A DNA stretch of 45,566 nt from Escherichia phage vB_EcoS_XY1: the sequence record NC_073325.1; one strand, written 5' to 3'. Below the pieces are notes generated by a model. That model saw only the letters and a list, made by a program, of their open reading frames with translations. It had not been told where the DNA came from and made no database searches. Both the position numbers and the translations under genes were made by a program. Positions 1 through 45,566 of the stretch are shown here, in pieces. Position 1 is the first letter of the stretch. Each line of letters starts with the position of its first letter.

Positions 1-127
1 GGGTCAGTCTGCGGCTTCCAGTTAGCGTTACCAACCGGGTTAAACGATGCGGGGACAACAACCGGCAGAGTCCCGGTATACGAGTACCACGTCTTGCTTA
101 CAGGGTCATACACCACTTTGTCTCGGT
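1..127. repeat. Direct terminal repeat; identical copy at 45440-45566 (circular closure overlap or terminal redundancy)
   Basis: Bases 1-127 match 45440-45566 exactly when read from the sequence. Confidence 0.9.
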
Positions 128-371
128 CATTAACTGTTAATGTCCCGCCTGTAGAAAAGTCCCACGACACGGGAGAAAATCCCGCGCCACGCAACACGGC
201 GGGTAACGTTTTTTGTGTCTGTCCTGTAACCTGATTTGTTGCGTAATCAATATCAGCACCAGTAGCAACACCGCCGGATTTACCAGTAATAACCTCGGCT
301 TCGAAAATCTGGTGTTTCTTGGCGGTCTGTAAATCCGCCAGGCTTAAAACGTCACCGCATCCGCTTGACAT
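1..371 (-). CDS. Tailspike, N-terminal segment (5' end of the gene; continues across the window junction into 42883-45566)
   Basis: ATG at 371 preceded by AAGAGGA; translation MSSGCGDVLSLADLQTAKKHQIFEAEVITGK...DRDKVVYDPVSK runs in frame into the ORF that starts the 42883-45555 track entry. Confidence 0.8.
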   Translation of the reverse strand, partial: MSSGCGDVLSLADLQTAKKHQIFEAEVITGKSGGVATGADIDYATNQVTGQTQKTLPAVLRGAGFSPVSWDFSTGGTLTVNDRDKVVYDPVSKTWYSYTGTLPVVVPASFNPVGNANWKPQTD

Positions 372-383
372 ATAGAGTCCTCT

Positions 384-2939
384 TTAATTAAAACCATTGC
401 TGAATCCGTCGGAGAAACCGCTGCCGTATGGCGCGACGCCGTCGTATTTATAGAATCCGTCGTCATAGTTGTAGCCTGTAATCTTGACCGTGCGGTCGTC
501 GCCGGGTTCGATTGAAGAAACAACTATCTTCTGAGCATTATGCCTTGCTTCGTTGCCGAATGAAAACTCAGTTTTTAGTGCGCTATTCCCCGTGTAGATT
601 GCTTCTTCCGGCGCGGAGAGCATAATCACTTCGCGGTCGTGGCTTCCTTTGATAACGGAGATACTCTGTACAGAGCCATCGCGCTTCTTGAGGATGATGG
701 AGTGGTCATCACCCGGAGTAAACGCAACCGGCTGTGACAGTGTCAGCGTAAGCCCATTAACGGCAGCAACATAGCCGTCCTGTGGCGCAATACGCGAGCC
801 TTTAACTACGCTGATTACACCGCCTGGGGTAGCGAGCGCACCTTCTTCGGTAGCTTCAAACTCTACGACAACTTTACTTAACGCATTGCGCTGGTAGCGA
901 CGCCACGCCAGCCAGTACGCTTGCTGATAGTTGCGCACGCCCTTCGATTCGTATTCCTCGGTGTTTGCCCCTAGTTCTTCCGGGATATAAATAGTTTCCT
1001 GTACGTTCGTATCCGGGTCGATGTATGAGAACGACAGGCTATCGTAGGTTGTCGAATCGTTGAACGTGCGGGTCCATTTCTCAGTACCGGTAGTTTTGCT
1101 GCGGTGGGTGAACACCATTTCAGGCCCCGCGACAGGACGGTCGAATCGCAGCATAATATCCGCACCTTTACGGTACGCAGTACAGAAAACGGCTTCCGCT
1201 ATGGTCTGGACGATGTCCTGCATGGTTGTGTCATAGTCGTCGAACGTGTAGCAGAATTGCCCTGCTAATTCACTTCCGAAATAGGACTCAATTTCTTCCT
1301 GCACAGCAAGTAACTTGTCCATGTTTGCCGTTGTCAGTTCCAGATTGCCTACTGCGGGGTCGCGCGCCAGTCGAATTAGAGATTGTACGGCTTGCGTGTT
1401 CGGTGTCATTACTGTATCGAATACCCCATTGCCGAGGTATTTGTAGCACATCTCGGTCGCAATCATGCGCAGTTCAGGGTTATCGATACTGGCGGCCCGC
1501 GGCGTCTGTTTACGGGCGCAATGTACGGTAGTTCGGTTGCCGTAGTGTGGAGTGGTGTCCAGAGACTGCCCATACAGGTTAATGAATGTTATCTCGTCGC
1601 TTACCGTTCCGTCATAGTCCTTATCAAAATTCGTTATACGGCGCATACGGGCGCGGAAACGAGACGCGGTCGGCAACTGCCCGTAGATAGACGTACCAAC
1701 GTAATCCGTGCTATTACCAGTAATCGTAGCCTGTACCGTGTAAATATCGCTCAACGGGTTACGCTGAGAGTCAATCATCTGGTACTGGAGTTCCACCGTT
1801 ACGCTGGTGCGGTTATAGCCGCCGTCGTATTTGTAGATGCCGTTCTGCCCGACAACGTTCGCAAGCACCCGGTCAACTTCTCCGCGCACCATGTAATACC
1901 AGTCTGTCAGGGATACGTCATAGGTGTCGCTCGGGCCGATAAACGTATCTGAACGCTCTGTTAGGGCGTACGTCTGCCCGCTGGTCAACGCCGCCCAGTT
2001 AGACGCACCGTTTACCGCTAATCTTACTTCGAAGTCATCAACGTATAAAACCTCAAACGAGCCGTTCAGGTTAGTGACATCAGCAACGTCAAAGTTGCTC
2101 AGCACCGCGACATCACCGACGCTAAGAAACTCAGAAAAAGCAGAGTCGCCCGACGGGTCATAGATGTAGCCGGTGGTCGAAGTACGTTTGGCGGTTCCAC
2201 CGGAGCTTGGGTTAGCCCCAATGTCGTTTGGCGCTTTGAGCACAATACCGTCAACGTCGTCATTGGAGTACGTCACATAGAGCTTCTGATCAATGACGTC
2301 GCCGATTTGTACCTGCGGCGATGTGGTGTTGTTCGGTGACGTATACGGCGCGTACACGGCAACAGAGGAACCTGTGATGTCGCTTATCAGGGTGTCGCCT
2401 TCCGTGACGCCATCGGCCTCAATATACAGATGTCCGCGCCCGGCGTCGTAGTACGAATACTCCAGCAAAGCACCAGTGGAGTTGAACGCTTTATACGTCT
2501 GCATAAGGTCGTTAGGGATTGTCTGCACAGTCCCGCAGATGTCATAAGAGCGCTCGTAAGGGCGTGGTTTGTTTGAGCGGTCCGTGAGGCTGTTATTTGG
2601 CGATGTTGTCTGGTTGTTAGTCGCCGTATAGTTGGCGTTTGCGGACATGTTCAGGCCAAACAACTTAGCGATTGGCTTAAGGATAAAACCAAATACCTTA
2701 CTAACTGCACCAAGCGCCCCGCTACCCGCACCCTCAATAATATGGTACACGGCGTCTTCGTCTTTAAGCGCTTCGAAGTCGTCTGTAACATCAGTATCAT
2801 CGCCAATCTCGCCGAGGTAGACGCGCACAGGCACACCGTCCGGAATACGGCTAACAACAAACTCCATCGGCATCCCGACGTGTTTTGTACGGTCGAAAGC
2901 GCCATCAGCGTTTCGCGAGTAGTGCAGGATTATCGCCAA
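384..2939 (-). CDS. Central tail fibre / tail tip protein (host-specificity J-like)
   Basis: 851-aa ORF directly downstream of the tail assembly genes and upstream of the tailspike; call rests on size and position. Confidence 0.5.
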   Translation of the reverse strand: MAIILHYSRNADGAFDRTKHVGMPMEFVVSRIPDGVPVRVYLGEIGDDTDVTDDFEALKDEDAVYHIIEGAGSGALGAVSKVFGFILKPIAKLFGLNMSANANYTATNNQTTSPNNSLTDRSNKPRPYERSYDICGTVQTIPNDLMQTYKAFNSTGALLEYSYYDAGRGHLYIEADGVTEGDTLISDITGSSVAVYAPYTSPNNTTSPQVQIGDVIDQKLYVTYSNDDVDGIVLKAPNDIGANPSSGGTAKRTSTTGYIYDPSGDSAFSEFLSVGDVAVLSNFDVADVTNLNGSFEVLYVDDFEVRLAVNGASNWAALTSGQTYALTERSDTFIGPSDTYDVSLTDWYYMVRGEVDRVLANVVGQNGIYKYDGGYNRTSVTVELQYQMIDSQRNPLSDIYTVQATITGNSTDYVGTSIYGQLPTASRFRARMRRITNFDKDYDGTVSDEITFINLYGQSLDTTPHYGNRTTVHCARKQTPRAASIDNPELRMIATEMCYKYLGNGVFDTVMTPNTQAVQSLIRLARDPAVGNLELTTANMDKLLAVQEEIESYFGSELAGQFCYTFDDYDTTMQDIVQTIAEAVFCTAYRKGADIMLRFDRPVAGPEMVFTHRSKTTGTEKWTRTFNDSTTYDSLSFSYIDPDTNVQETIYIPEELGANTEEYESKGVRNYQQAYWLAWRRYQRNALSKVVVEFEATEEGALATPGGVISVVKGSRIAPQDGYVAAVNGLTLTLSQPVAFTPGDDHSIILKKRDGSVQSISVIKGSHDREVIMLSAPEEAIYTGNSALKTEFSFGNEARHNAQKIVVSSIEPGDDRTVKITGYNYDDGFYKYDGVAPYGSGFSDGFSNGFN

Positions 2940-42208: not shown

Positions 42209-42720
42209 TGGATTTCGAAGAGTTTCTACTTAAAGCTCATCTGCTGGCGCGTGGGTTTGACGCTGACCGTCTCCAGGTAGTCTTAGCCCCTGGAGTAGCT
42301 ACGTTTTACCTGTGGGGGTTTGACGGTAGGCTTCGCGGATACCAGCATTACAAACCACATGCCGAAAAGAACTGTAAAAACCCTAAAGACGCGCGGTACT
42401 TTACCAGAACAACAAGGCCGTGTTTATGGGGGCTTGAGTATTTGCCGGAAAGCGGGGTGGTATTTGTTACCGAAAGCATATTCAAAGCCGTAGCCTTGAT
42501 GAATTGCGGGTTCAATGCTGTAAGCGCACTGGGGTCAAATATATCAACAGACCTACGGCAGCAAATGTCACTTTTGCCGTATGACTGGGTGTGCGCTGGC
42601 GACAATGATAAAGCTGGATTAAAGTTCAGCAAAACATTCACCAGAGGATTTGTATCTAACGACCTTGATGAACTTTGTGAAGAAGAAATAACGTATCTTG
42701 CGAGGAAATTTACCAGATGA
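42205..42720 (+). CDS. TOPRIM-domain protein (DnaG-type primase catalytic core-like)
   Basis: VFVTESIFKA (Glu) and VCAGDNDKAG (DxD) motifs. Confidence 0.45.
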   Translation: MMDFEEFLLKAHLLARGFDADRLQVVLAPGVATFYLWGFDGRLRGYQHYKPHAEKNCKNPKDARYFTRTTRPCLWGLEYLPESGVVFVTESIFKAVALMNCGFNAVSALGSNISTDLRQQMSLLPYDWVCAGDNDKAGLKFSKTFTRGFVSNDLDELCEEEITYLARKFTR

Positions 42721-42854
42721 ACATCATAGCTCCGATTCCAGCATTGCAAAAACGTATCAAGGAACTCGAAGATGAGGTTCTGCGACTACGGCAACAGAGA
42801 GACGCCGCTAATGCGCAACTGGCGTTTGTACTGGAGAAGTTATCGGAAGAGTAG
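42717..42854 (+). CDS. Small coiled-coil peptide (unannotated in the ORF track)
   Basis: 45-aa ORF MNIIAPIPALQKRIKELEDEVLRLRQQRD... with ATGA overlap to the upstream gene. Confidence 0.25.
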   Translation: MNIIAPIPALQKRIKELEDEVLRLRQQRDAANAQLAFVLEKLSEE

Positions 42855-42856
42855 AG

Positions 42857-42885
42857 AAAAGGCCCCGAAAGGGGCCTTAGTTTTA
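42857..42885. terminator. Bidirectional rho-independent terminator (identical copy at 12420-12448)
   Basis: AAAAGGCCCCGAAAGGGGCCTTAGTTTTA between convergent gene ends. Confidence 0.7.
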
Positions 42886-45566
42886 TTTATCTTCTAGTGC
42901 TGCCAGCCTCTTCTCGAACTCGCGCATCTTCTTACGCTGATACGCAATCTCTATGAAGAACATCTGGTCCGCCCTAACCCCCCATCTGCCGCCGGGAGGG
43001 GATACTTGTACAGTCCGTCCATCTTCATCAATATCATACGCAGCTTCAATTGAGTCGTAGCACAAGAAAGCATATTTACAATCGGTAGAATCTTTCTCCA
43101 TAAGCCCATGTTTGACCAAGATGTCTCGCACATCTTGAGCTATCACGCCGAAGTGTATCCTTGCAGTGTCACCCTTGATTGCTAGGCTTTCAAGCCACTT
43201 AAAAGATATTACATGTATATCTTCCCATGCGGTAAGGAGTTGTTCCTCAATTTCCTCTTTGTTCGTCTTAAGTGTACCGTCAGACGTGTTTATCGTACCG
43301 GTGGTCGCGTACACCGTAGTCCACCTATTACCTGCCGAACCTAAAGACACTTGCGAGTCTAAGTAAGGAAGGAAATTGTTGTATGAGTAGAAGCCTCCTG
43401 ACGCATACATAATAGCCCTGTTAGGCGTTGCATGGTTCGACCCGTACAGTTGCAGCAATGCACCGTCGGAACTGGATGCGCCATCACCGCCACTAACAAT
43501 CAGTCGTTGACCCGATGGAGTTTTAGTCGGGACTGTTTTTGAAATCAGCCCGTAATCACCATCAAACCGTGCACGCACGGCAGACTGTTGTGTGCCATCG
43601 TATTCCAACCCCGTTACACGCAGGGAGTACACGCTTATATCATTGTCAAACGTCAAAGGTGCTTCTACATGACGGACACCATCTACACCCATTGCGACAG
43701 GTAGTGTACGGTTAGGAGTTGCTCCGTATTTGAAATCACGTGACACATACGGGTGGCCTTCAATCTTTATCCGGTAGCTATATAAGTCAGCCGGATGCCC
43801 ATCATGCTTGTACCATAACTTCGCACTGTTATCCCCGATGCTCCAGGGAGAGAAGAAGTCTTCCCCACCAAAGATATAGTACAACCAGCCATCTTTAACA
43901 CAGACAGAGCCGACGCCGACAGCAGAGTTAACAATATGGCCCTGGTATATTTGGTCGGTAATATTAAACCACTGAACATCATCTAAAGATGAAGGCCATG
44001 ACGACACATTAACTTTGCACATAAAGGTCCGTGGATACGAACCTTCATAGCGGCTGTCCGGCTCGCCTCCTTCCCACTCGCCAAAGGCACGTTCTGTACC
44101 AAAGATGTAGAGATAGTCACCTACTTTAGCGAACGGAAGATTGGAGTGATGTACATTGTTCGGAAATCGCAAGTAGCTCCAGTTTTGCCCAGAATCGGTG
44201 CTCATCGCCAGTGTAGAGCCAGGGGAAGTAGGTAATGTGCCGCGTGTGGTAAGGTAGAGCACACCCCCATAACTTTTCACGCACGGTTCAGAAGCGTTAT
44301 CAGCGTATGCCTGAGCGACAGTGCGACGAACGAATACGCCTGGGTTGTCATAAACGTTACTAAAATACAAGACGCCAAGACGACGAGGGGACACATCGCC
44401 GTTGTGGTAGCCGACAGCGATAGTGTAGTTAGTATCATCTATAACCGCAAAACTATGTGTCTCCGTGACACACAAATCAGCGTTAGTGGAGTATGCTACC
44501 CCCGGCAATTCGGTAATTTCCCACGGGCTGTCCCAGAATCGCGTTGCGAAGTTCCAGGTAACACCCGCATTGTTTATGGTGGAACTCGCAGGGCTTGAGA
44601 GCGTAACAGTGAACGTATTTCGGTTAATTATAGACGCAACCGTCATATTACCCGATACGCCAGTTGCCGATGTATTAGAGAAGTTAACCGCATCTCCTGC
44701 TTTTAGGCCATGATTTTCTATAACAATGGTAGCAGTAGTGGAGCCAGAACTAATAGTTATTCCGCCGGTTGGGTGTCTAAAATACGGCATTGGGCGTGAC
44801 CAAAGTTCTGCCTTCTTCATCCGCATATTAGATAAGTAGCGGGTTTCTATAACTGCATATAATCGGTTGCCGCACGTACCCATGCTCATGCAGTGGTAGT
44901 TAACTCTGTCCGCAGAAACACTGGCATTATAGTCAGCATGGATTGGAGTCAACCACTCAGGCATTGACCAAGTCTGCCCGTCGTCACCAGAGCGAACCCA
45001 AGCTACATGTAAGTTTTGAACGCCATGTCGTTCGCCCGCCATAAACGGGGCGTAAATAACATGGTCGTAGACGAAAGTTTTATCCTGCGTCCATGCGTTG
45101 TAGAACGGGGTATCCGTCACCTTAGTTAGTGAGCTGTTAAAGAAGCCATCAGCTACATAAGTAAGCGGTTGCCCGGCTACACGCTCGTAAACGAATGCAG
45201 CATTCTTAAATTTACTAATGTCAGGTAATTGGGAAACTTTATAAGTCAAACCCCTGCCGTCTATAATCCAATTGTTGGGAGAAGCTGCTAATACATTAAA
45301 AATAGATTGAGTATCATCAGTTACACCGTCGCCCACGGCGCCCCATGCGCGTGGGTCGTATTCGTCCTTCCATCGCGCCATATGTAAATCTGGGTACAGA
45401 ATTGCACCGTTTACATCAGATATTTGCTGCCTGAGATTTGGGTCAGTCTGCGGCTTCCAGTTAGCGTTACCAACCGGGTTAAACGATGCGGGGACAACAA
45501 CCGGCAGAGTCCCGGTATACGAGTACCACGTCTTGCTTACAGGGTCATACACCACTTTGTCTCGGT
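42883..45566 (-). CDS. Tailspike: sialidase-like beta-propeller with C-terminal intramolecular chaperone domain (endosialidase-type); main body of the gene that starts at 371
   Basis: Asp-box motifs SGDDGQTW and STDSGQNW; C-terminal ...DIHVISFKWLESLAIKGDTARIHFGVIAQDV... chaperone-like region; ORF stays open to the window end and continues in frame from 1-371. Confidence 0.75.
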   Translation of the reverse strand, partial: RDKVVYDPVSKTWYSYTGTLPVVVPASFNPVGNANWKPQTDPNLRQQISDVNGAILYPDLHMARWKDEYDPRAWGAVGDGVTDDTQSIFNVLAASPNNWIIDGRGLTYKVSQLPDISKFKNAAFVYERVAGQPLTYVADGFFNSSLTKVTDTPFYNAWTQDKTFVYDHVIYAPFMAGERHGVQNLHVAWVRSGDDGQTWSMPEWLTPIHADYNASVSADRVNYHCMSMGTCGNRLYAVIETRYLSNMRMKKAELWSRPMPYFRHPTGGITISSGSTTATIVIENHGLKAGDAVNFSNTSATGVSGNMTVASIINRNTFTVTLSSPASSTINNAGVTWNFATRFWDSPWEITELPGVAYSTNADLCVTETHSFAVIDDTNYTIAVGYHNGDVSPRRLGVLYFSNVYDNPGVFVRRTVAQAYADNASEPCVKSYGGVLYLTTRGTLPTSPGSTLAMSTDSGQNWSYLRFPNNVHHSNLPFAKVGDYLYIFGTERAFGEWEGGEPDSRYEGSYPRTFMCKVNVSSWPSSLDDVQWFNITDQIYQGHIVNSAVGVGSVCVKDGWLYYIFGGEDFFSPWSIGDNSAKLWYKHDGHPADLYSYRIKIEGHPYVSRDFKYGATPNRTLPVAMGVDGVRHVEAPLTFDNDISVYSLRVTGLEYDGTQQSAVRARFDGDYGLISKTVPTKTPSGQRLIVSGGDGASSSDGALLQLYGSNHATPNRAIMYASGGFYSYNNFLPYLDSQVSLGSAGNRWTTVYATTGTINTSDGTLKTNKEEIEEQLLTAWEDIHVISFKWLESLAIKGDTARIHFGVIAQDVRDILVKHGLMEKDSTDCKYAFLCYDSIEAAYDIDEDGRTVQVSPPGGRWGVRADQMFFIEIAYQRKKMREFEKRLAALEDK
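45440..45566. repeat. Second copy of the 127-bp terminal repeat
   Basis: Identical to bases 1-127. Confidence 0.9.

What the first reader, a model, noticed from the sequence alone, without database searches (positions are those of the whole stretch)
42883..45566. Tailspike combines a conserved N-terminal anchor, a sialidase-like propeller with Asp-boxes and a C-terminal intramolecular chaperone: predicted polysialic-acid (K1-type) capsule depolymerase
Seen: two Asp-box motifs (SGDDGQTW, STDSGQNW) of the S-x-D-x-G-x-T-W type typical of sialidase beta-propellers, and a C-terminal region (...LTAWEDIHVISFKWLESLAIKGDTARIHFGVIAQDV...) resembling the self-cleaving chaperone domain of endosialidases and some tail fibres. 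Established knowledge: this domain combination is that of phage endo-N-acetylneuraminidases targeting the E. coli K1 capsule. Inference: host is probably a K1-type encapsulated enterobacterium. The N-terminal ~115 residues would be the exchangeable adaptor joining this receptor-binding module to the virion.
Basis: partly seen in the sequence, partly recalled or inferred. Interest (0 to 1): 0.45.

Follow-up and report, generated by a model that had tools for sequence, protein, structure and literature searches.

The report
Known K1-capsule endosialidase phage tailspike
This gene encodes the tailspike of a Kagunavirus-type E. coli phage, an enzyme that digests the polysialic-acid (K1) capsule; it is almost identical to enzymes already cloned and tested from phages 63D, K1G, K1H and JSSK01, so it is ordinary, apart from a swapped piece in its N-terminal anchor.

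Summary
The ORF lies on the minus strand (stop at 42883-42885) and runs off the window end. The window carries an exact 127-bp terminal direct repeat, so it is a circular contig of 45,439 bp. The true start is the ATG at 371 on the minus strand, giving a 975-aa protein.

Pfam finds all four endosialidase domains (beta-propeller E=3.9e-224) plus Peptidase_S74. The protein is 79% identical to the phi92 endosialidase crystal structure and 53% to K1F endoNF. All five endoNF catalytic residues, both Asp-boxes and the Ser-Lys dyad (S843/K848) are conserved.

The DNA is 96-98.5% identical to the endosialidase genes of K1-dependent kagunaviruses (63D, K1G, K1H, JSSK01, BUCT825). The K1H and JSSK01 enzymes have been shown to act on K1 capsule.

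The one new detail is in the anchor. Residues 66-124 are of the type found in non-K1 kagunaviruses such as fFiEco02 (97% identical) and only 41% identical to the K1G/63D type. The junction falls at a recurrent exchange point (PQTDPN|LR). It coincides to the base with the contig break, and I found it in no other collection searched.

Interest is low.

The parts
378..383 (-). Ribosome-binding site AGAGGA, 6 nt upstream of the tailspike ATG. It follows directly after the stop (386..384) of the 851-aa gpJ-like tail protein gene (384..2939, minus strand).
   Evidence: Sequence read; ORF list; weak Phage-tail_3 and FNIII-A_GpJ matches for the upstream ORF.
177..371 (-). Tailspike residues 1-65: the first anchor subdomain, shared across kagunaviruses (95-97% identical to K1G, 63D, VIPECOTH07 and fFiEco02). 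It lies outside the coordinates given in the finding.
1..176 (-). Tailspike residues 66-124: the second anchor subdomain (weak Pfam Tail_spike_N match). It is of the fFiEco02 type (96.7% identical) and only 41% identical to the K1G/63D type, and is 9 residues shorter. It continues across the circular junction into 45439.
45440..45566 (.). Exact 127-bp copy of window 1-127, the terminal direct repeat that marks the contig as circular. It encodes anchor residues 82-124. Its inner edge is also the last base that matches the fFiEco02-type anchor.
45340..45438 (-). Residues 125-157: linker NLRQQISDVNGAILYPDLHMARWKDEYDPRAWG. Identity to the 63D/K1G-type endosialidase starts here. A similar linker occurs in the PDB 9VVR tailspike and in CUS-3-like endosialidases.
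45139..45339 (-). Residues 158-224: endosialidase N-terminal extension (Pfam End_N_terminal, E=6.6e-38).
43759..45138 (-). Residues 225-684: six-bladed sialidase beta-propeller, the catalytic domain (Pfam End_beta_propel, E=3.9e-224). It contains H262, R476, E508, R523 and R574.
44539..44787 (-). Residues 342-424: beta-barrel domain inserted in the propeller (Pfam End_beta_barrel, E=4.8e-42).
44968..44991 (-). Asp-box 1, SGDDGQTW (residues 274-281).
44179..44202 (-). Asp-box 2, STDSGQNW (residues 537-544).
43285..43755 (-). Residues 686-842: stalk domain (Pfam End_tail_spike, E=2e-74). It ends in ...TGTINT, which is also the last residue of the mature phi92 enzyme in 4HIZ.
42886..43284 (-). 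Residues 843-975: C-terminal intramolecular chaperone / self-cleaving domain (Peptidase_S74). S843 (43284..43282) and K848 (43269..43267) form the dyad. Predicted cleavage is between T842 and S843, giving a 92.3-kDa mature spike and a 15.3-kDa released fragment.
42883..42885 (-). Stop codon of the tailspike gene.
42859..42878 (.). Perfect GC-rich hairpin (AAGGCCCC-GAAA-GGGGCCTT) between the tailspike gene and the convergent plus-strand genes. It is a likely transcription terminator, possibly working in both directions.

Best explanation
The gene encodes the single tailspike of a lytic siphovirus of the genus Kagunavirus (subfamily Guernseyvirinae). It is an endo-N-acetylneuraminidase (endosialidase, glycoside hydrolase family 58) of the 63D/K1G/K1H type.

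Mechanism, with each step marked as shown or inferred:
- The 975-aa precursor folds as a trimer, guided by its C-terminal 133-residue chaperone domain (inferred from homology).
- The chaperone domain then removes itself by Ser843/Lys848-catalysed cleavage between T842 and S843 (inferred from conserved residues, and from the 93-kDa size of the near-identical K1H enzyme).
- The N-terminal ~124 residues attach the mature 92-kDa spike to the tail tip (inferred).
- The beta-propeller, using H262/R476/E508/R523/R574, cuts alpha-2,8-polysialic acid so that the phage can pass through the K1 capsule of E. coli. The domains and residues are shown here. Activity is shown experimentally only for the near-identical K1H and JSSK01 proteins.

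Compared with published K1 kagunaviruses, the second half of the anchor (residues 66-124) has been replaced by the variant used by non-K1 kagunaviruses. The swap occurred at a recurrent exchange point.
For: - Domains: four endosialidase Pfam domains plus Peptidase_S74, all above their curated cut-offs. PHROG tail spike family phrog_1171 matches at E=4.6e-284.
- Solved structures: 4HIZ at E=0 and 79.3% identity; endoNF structures at about 1e-230 and 52.9% identity; chaperone-domain structure 3GW6 at 1.8e-58.
- Catalytic residues and dyad are conserved (residue roles from PMC12632334 and PMC3742443).
- DNA: 96-98.5% identity over 95% of the region to 19 phage records annotated as endosialidase or tailspike, with hosts written as E. 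coli O18:K1:H7 or K1.
- Whole genome: 94-96% identical to Kagunavirus vB_VIPECOTH07, with the same gene order of tail protein, tailspike, then convergent primase and helicase genes.
- Experiments on relatives: K1H depolymerase runs at 93 kDa after proteolysis and degrades purified K1 capsule (PMC5696595). JSSK01 enzyme activity was validated, and K1G, K1H and JSSK01 are classed as K1-dependent phages (PMC11641727).
- Size: the predicted mature protein is 92.3 kDa.
Against: - No enzyme assay or host test exists for this exact sequence.
- The closest solved structure is the phi92 enzyme. From my own recollection of the literature (not checked here), that enzyme also cuts alpha-2,9 linkages of the K92 capsule, so a wider specificity is not excluded.
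- The anchor-enzyme junction was found in no other record. It coincides with the contig break, so closure of the circle rests only on the 127-bp overlap.
- endoNF K410 is N328 here. PMC12632334 reports that K410 is dispensable in the phage context.
Confidence: 0.93

Rival explanations
1. It is an endosialidase, but its main or additional target is not K1. For example it could be a bifunctional alpha-2,8/alpha-2,9 enzyme serving a K92 host, like the phi92 endosialidase.
For: The best solved-structure match is the phi92 endosialidase 4HIZ (79.3% identity), well above K1F endoNF (52.9%). The bifunctionality of the phi92 enzyme is from my own knowledge of the literature and was not checked here.
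Against: The gene is 96-98.5% identical to those of phages isolated on, and dependent on, K1 strains. The near-identical K1H enzyme degrades K1 capsule. Some alpha-2,9 side activity would not contradict K1 being the target.
Confidence: 0.05
2. The link between this anchor and the endosialidase, or the circular closure of the contig, is an assembly artefact from a sample holding two related kagunaviruses. In that case the endosialidase belongs to a K1G-type phage with the usual anchor.
For: The 127-bp terminal repeat ends on exactly the last base that matches the fFiEco02-type anchor. That is what a branch point in a k=127 assembly graph would produce. The junction was found in none of 50,697 phage records, IMG/VR, the JGI metagenomes or the protein collection.
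Against: The 127 nt of fFiEco02-type anchor are physically contiguous with the endosialidase inside the window (45566..45432). The two parental types share no identical stretch at the junction that could cause a k-mer mis-join. The join is in frame and lies at the 'PQTDPN|LR' point, where many natural tailspikes change module. The protein search evidently missed even the 984-aa K1G-type proteins, so its negative result is weak. Even if closure were wrong, the identity of the enzyme would not change.
Confidence: 0.08
3. It is a catalytically inactive, binding-only spike: an endosialidase fold kept only for polysialic-acid recognition.
For: Nothing specific. Such inactive endosialidase mutants are used as polysialic-acid probes (my own knowledge).
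Against: All five catalytic residues are conserved. The catalytic part is 98-100% identical at protein level to the 63D, K1G and VIPECOTH07 enzymes, and the near-identical K1H and JSSK01 enzymes are active.
Confidence: 0.01

Closest known systems
Endosialidase of coliphage 63D (GenBank AB015437, 'Phage #D') and the tailspikes of Kagunavirus K1G, K1H, JSSK01, BUCT825 and vB_VIPECOTH07
   Same: Same domain order and length class. DNA is 96-98.5% identical from gene nt 376-380 to the stop. Protein is 97-100% identical over residues 127-842 and 89-98.5% over the chaperone domain. Same position in the genome, after the gpJ-like tail protein and convergent with the primase and helicase genes.
   Different: Anchor residues 66-124 are only 41% identical and 9 residues shorter, making the protein 975 aa rather than 984. 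They match the anchor of non-K1 kagunaviruses instead.
Endosialidase of phage phi92 (PDB 4HIZ)
   Same: 79.3% identical over 682 residues covering the N-terminal extension, propeller, barrel and stalk. Both mature proteins end in ...GTINT.
   Different: phi92 is a myovirus with a different attachment region. There is a 4-residue insertion here (SVSA, near residue 310). The phi92 enzyme is reported to also cleave alpha-2,9 linkages (my own knowledge, not tested).
Endosialidase endoNF of phage K1F (PDB 1V0E, 3GVL; chaperone domain 3GW6)
   Same: Same fold elements, 52.9% identity. Catalytic residues H350, R549, E581, R596 and R647, both Asp-boxes and the S911/K916 dyad positions are all conserved.
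   Different: K1F is a T7-like podovirus with a different N-terminal capsid-binding domain. The endoNF chaperone domain carries ~20 extra residues. endoNF K410 is N328 here.
Tailspike of Kagunavirus vB_EcoS_fFiEco02 (QNO11594) and related non-K1 kagunaviruses
   Same: Anchor residues 1-124 are 95-97% identical, and the DNA is identical through gene nt 371 apart from a few upstream changes. Both also end in a Peptidase_S74-type chaperone domain (41% identity).
   Different: The receptor-binding/catalytic part is unrelated (15% identity, 778 aa in total), with no endosialidase domains.

Membership tests
Phage endosialidase (endo-N-acetylneuraminidase, GH58) | Six-bladed sialidase beta-propeller catalytic domain | tested here: met
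   Pfam PF12217 at E=3.9e-224 over model positions 1-367 of 367. 79.3% identity to 4HIZ and 52.9% to 1V0E.
Phage endosialidase (endo-N-acetylneuraminidase, GH58) | Beta-barrel domain inserted in the propeller, plus the N-terminal extension | tested here: met
   PF12195 at E=4.8e-42 and PF12218 at E=6.6e-38.
Phage endosialidase (endo-N-acetylneuraminidase, GH58) | Stalk (tail-spike) domain following the propeller | tested here: met
   PF12219 at E=2e-74 over model positions 2-160 of 160.
Phage endosialidase (endo-N-acetylneuraminidase, GH58) | Catalytic residues equivalent to endoNF H350, R549, E581, R596 and R647 | tested here: met
   H262, R476, E508, R523 and R574. The residue list comes from PMC12632334.
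Phage endosialidase (endo-N-acetylneuraminidase, GH58) | Two Asp-box motifs (S-x-D-x-G-x-T/N-W) | tested here: met
   SGDDGQTW at residues 274-281 and STDSGQNW at 537-544. They align with the endoNF and phi92 Asp-boxes.
Phage endosialidase (endo-N-acetylneuraminidase, GH58) | Endo-cleavage of alpha-2,8-polysialic acid; homotrimer | not testable with these tools
   Shown only for near-identical relatives: K1H (PMC5696595) and JSSK01 (PMC11641727).
Peptidase S74 / C-terminal intramolecular chaperone (self-cleaving) domain | Domain homology at the extreme C-terminus, directly after a stalk | tested here: met
   PF13884 at E=2.7e-13. PDB matches: 3GW6 at 1.8e-58, 9VVR, 7Y5S, 3GUD and 4UW8.
Peptidase S74 / C-terminal intramolecular chaperone (self-cleaving) domain | Catalytic Ser-x4-Lys dyad at the cleavage site | tested here: met
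   S843-D-G-T-L-K848. It aligns with A-N-G-E-R-K of 3GW6 and with S-D-A-R-x-K of 9VVR and 7Y5S. The Ala in 3GW6 I take to be the S911A non-cleaving mutant, from memory. The role of the dyad is from PMC3742443.
Peptidase S74 / C-terminal intramolecular chaperone (self-cleaving) domain | Actual autoproteolytic release of the domain | not testable with these tools
   The predicted mature mass of 92.3 kDa agrees with the 93-kDa processed K1H enzyme.
Kagunavirus (Guernseyvirinae) tailspike | Conserved N-terminal anchor, and a position downstream of the gpJ-like tail protein in a Kagunavirus genome | tested here: met
   Residues 1-65 are 95-97% identical to four kagunavirus tailspikes. The genome is 94-96% identical to vB_VIPECOTH07 with the same gene order.

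The most novel reading that the evidence does not exclude
The anchor-endosialidase combination is a natural recombinant not yet in any collection: an fFiEco02-type second anchor subdomain fused at 'PQTDPN|LR' to a 63D-type endosialidase. The contig breaks exactly at that junction because the same sample also held a sibling phage with the same anchor but a different receptor-binding module. If so, this is a tailspike swap on one backbone caught within a single population.
Probability: 0.3. Interest if true: 0.25.

Novelty: already known. Interest (0 to 1): 0.08.

Why it matters
It matters little for discovery. The enzyme family, this 63D/K1G subfamily, its self-cleaving chaperone domain and its use by K1-dependent kagunaviruses are all published, and near-identical proteins have been purified and tested in animals.

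The practical value is in annotation:
- The contig can be called a complete circular Kagunavirus genome.
- Its host can be predicted with confidence as K1-encapsulated E. coli.
- The tailspike gene must be read across the contig ends.

The swapped second half of the anchor is one more example of modular exchange in tailspikes at a fixed junction. That may be useful to people engineering receptor-binding proteins on Guernseyvirinae backbones.

Tried and rejected
- I translated the region on the plus strand first. It is full of stops, so the gene is on the minus strand.
- I looked for the anchor-enzyme junction elsewhere. Exact 52-nt and 29-nt patterns found nothing in IMG/VR viral contigs or in the JGI metagenome contigs.
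- An exact-protein look-up of the 893-aa partial product found no record.
- A search of the 5.8-billion-protein collection with residues 1-271 found no protein spanning the junction at high identity. It returned only proteins under 500 aa and missed the known 984-aa K1G-type proteins, so this negative is weak.
- I did not run structure prediction or fold search. With 79% identity to a crystal structure over the whole catalytic part, a monomer model would add nothing, and the trimer cannot be modelled with these tools.
- I considered and rejected an assembly mis-join at the junction as the main reading, because there is no shared sequence there. I also rejected a catalytically dead spike, because all catalytic residues are present.
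- Plus-strand ORFs inside the region (for example 44465..44713, 82 aa) were treated as spurious, because the minus-strand frame is conserved at protein level along its whole length.
Full report
**What is at the coordinates.** The plus strand of 42883-45566 is full of stop codons. The minus strand carries one long open frame ending in a stop codon at 42885..42883, and it is still open at the window end. Both quoted Asp-boxes are present: SGDDGQTW at 44991..44968 and STDSGQNW at 44202..44179. The quoted C-terminal stretch is present as well.

**The gene crosses the window ends.** Window 1-127 is identical to window 45440-45566. This is the kind of terminal overlap a k=127 graph assembler leaves on a circular contig (inference), so the real molecule is a 45,439-bp circle.
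- Read on the minus strand, window 371..1 continues in frame into 45439..42883.
- The start is the ATG at 371, six bases after an AGAGGA ribosome-binding site. It lies just downstream of the stop codon of an 851-aa gpJ-like tail protein gene at 384..2939.
- The full product is 975 aa.
- The finding's coordinates therefore miss the first 82 residues.

**What the protein is.**
- Pfam places five domains in order, with residue numbers given in the 893-aa partial ORF (add 82 for full-length numbering): End_N_terminal (residues 76-142, E=6.6e-38), End_beta_propel (143-602, E=3.9e-224, whole model), End_beta_barrel inserted at 260-342 (E=4.8e-42), End_tail_spike (604-760, E=2e-74) and Peptidase_S74 (761-821, E=2.7e-13).
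- PHROGs gives the tail spike family phrog_1171 at E=4.6e-284.
- Against solved structures, the best match is the phi92 endosialidase 4HIZ (E=0, 79.3% identity over 682 residues). Next come the K1F endoNF structures 1V0E and 3GVL (about 1e-230, 52.9% identity) and the endoNF chaperone-domain structure 3GW6 (E=1.8e-58).
- With this level of identity to crystal structures, the sialidase fold is not in doubt. I ran no further search on it.

**Catalytic and cleavage residues.**
- The endoNF residues named as catalytic in PMC12632334 (H350, R549, E581, R596, R647) map to H262, R476, E508, R523 and R574. All are conserved.
- At the start of the chaperone domain the sequence is T842 | S843-D-G-T-L-K848.
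- S843 aligns with the Ala in the 3GW6 sequence 'TANGERK', and K848 with its Lys. I take that Ala to be the S911A non-cleaving mutation, from memory.
- The tailspike and tail-fibre chains 9VVR and 7Y5S show S-D-A-R-x-K at the same place.
- PMC3742443 states that this serine and lysine form the catalytic dyad for self-cleavage in phage endosialidases.
- The mature phi92 chain in 4HIZ ends in ...GTINT, exactly as residues 838-842 do here.
- Predicted products are a 92.3-kDa spike and a 15.3-kDa released fragment.

**Which phage, which host.**
- Megablast of the region against 50,697 phage records finds 19 records covering 95% of it at 96-98.5% identity. They include BUCT825, UTI-CM001, JSSK01, vB_VIPECOTH07, the historic phages P and L AB-2017, 'Phage #D' (AB015437, the cloned 63D endo-N-acetylneuraminidase), K1G and K1H.
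- The hosts are written as E. coli O18:K1:H7 or K1, and the features are annotated as endosialidase or tailspike.
- The rest of the window is a Kagunavirus (Guernseyvirinae) genome. Its closest relative is vB_VIPECOTH07, at 94-96% identity over 84-94% of the sequence. Gene order around the tailspike is the same: minor tail proteins, the large tail protein, the tailspike, then convergent hypothetical, primase and helicase genes.
- A perfect GC-rich hairpin at 42859-42878 sits between the convergent genes.
- K1H depolymerase has been purified, runs at 93 kDa 'after proteolysis' and degrades purified K1 capsule (PMC5696595).
- The JSSK01 enzyme has the same four Pfam domains and its activity was validated. 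K1G, K1H and JSSK01 are described as K1-dependent (PMC11641727).
- The host inference, K1-encapsulated E. coli, is therefore well supported by near-identity to tested enzymes, though not tested for this exact sequence.

**The anchor, and the one thing that differs.** A protein alignment with K1G, 63D, VIPECOTH07 and the non-K1 kagunavirus fFiEco02 divides the protein into three parts.

| Residues | Relationship |
|---|---|
| 1-65 | 95-97% identical to all four |
| 66-126 | 96.7% identical to fFiEco02; only 41% identical to the K1G/63D/VIPECOTH07 type, which is 9 residues longer |
| 127-975 | 97-100% identical to the K1 phages over residues 127-842, and 89-98.5% over the chaperone domain |

- At DNA level, the window matches the fFiEco02 type through gene nt 371, with a few upstream changes. 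It matches the K1H/BUCT825 type from nt 376 and K1G from nt 380. There is no stretch shared by both parental types.
- In other proteins the same anchor type is joined to many unrelated modules: pectate-lyase-like beta-helix (PF12708, PF13229), PF03372, PF03009, PF27114 and PF21562. A related anchor is joined to P22-type endorhamnosidase (PF09251).
- In those proteins similarity ends at 'PQTDP(N/D)|LR'.
- The anchor and linker also resemble the N-terminal parts of the solved tailspikes 9VVR, 9LNA and CBA120 TSP1 (4OJ5). Residues 77-112 give a marginal Tail_spike_N match of 25.7 bits against a cut-off of 25.

**A caution about the junction.**
- The terminal repeat ends on the very base where identity to the fFiEco02-type anchor ends. 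Such a coincidence is unlikely by chance. The simplest reading is that the assembly graph branched there, because the sample also held a phage with the same anchor and another receptor-binding module (inference).
- I found this junction in no other source: not among the phage records, IMG/VR or the JGI metagenomes.
- The protein collection also gave no hit, but that search missed the known K1G-type proteins, so its negative result is weak.
- A mis-join is unlikely. The 127 anchor bases are contiguous with the endosialidase inside the window, and the parental types share no sequence at the junction. Only reads can settle it.
- None of this affects the identity of the enzyme.

**Comparison and verdict.**
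- The protein passes every sequence-testable feature of the phage endosialidase family and of the Peptidase_S74 chaperone domain. Activity, trimerisation and actual cleavage cannot be tested here.
- It works like, and is a member of, the 63D/K1G/K1H endosialidase group.
- Because the nearest solved relative is the phi92 enzyme, some activity on K92-type polymer cannot be excluded. The phi92 bifunctionality is from my own knowledge.
- The finding is correct but already known. The only new detail is the swapped second anchor subdomain.
- Interest is low.

Noticed in passing
window 1-127 and 45440-45566: An exact 127-bp terminal direct repeat. The window is a complete circular contig of 45,439 bp, probably from a k=127 graph assembly, so any gene at either end must be read across the ends.
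   Followed up: yes
window 45432-45440 (gene nt 371-380): The contig break coincides to the base with the recombination junction between the fFiEco02-type anchor and the 63D-type endosialidase. This suggests a graph branch caused by a co-occurring phage with another tailspike module. It cannot be tested without reads.
   Followed up: partly
window 42859-42878: A perfect 8-bp GC-rich hairpin (AAGGCCCC GAAA GGGGCCTT) with a T-run, lying between the tailspike stop and the convergent 45-aa ORF (42717..42854, plus strand). It is a likely terminator, possibly working in both directions.
   Followed up: partly
window 42886-43284 (residues 843-975): The chaperone domain is closer to K1G and 63D (97-98.5%) than to the otherwise closest genome vB_VIPECOTH07 (88.7%). 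This hints at a further small mosaic boundary near the cleavage site.
   Followed up: no
whole window: The backbone is a Kagunavirus. It is 94-96% identical to vB_VIPECOTH07 (wastewater, Philippines) but only about 88-91% identical to K1G and K1H. That is close to the usual species boundary, so it may be a new species-level lineage.
   Followed up: partly
proteins P0020 and P0029: Large clusters of E. coli proteins (131 and 500 members), labelled as partial 'peptidase S74' entries, carry endosialidase domains behind other N-terminal domains, one of them a P22-type head-binding domain. They are presumably CUS-3-like prophage endosialidases, and they share the LRQQ...ARWRD...WGA.GDG linker.
   Followed up: no
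related genome PQ141284 (fEg-Eco06): A related kagunavirus is annotated with a 'minor head protein with inserted intein'. I did not check whether the window's homologue carries the intein.
   Followed up: no
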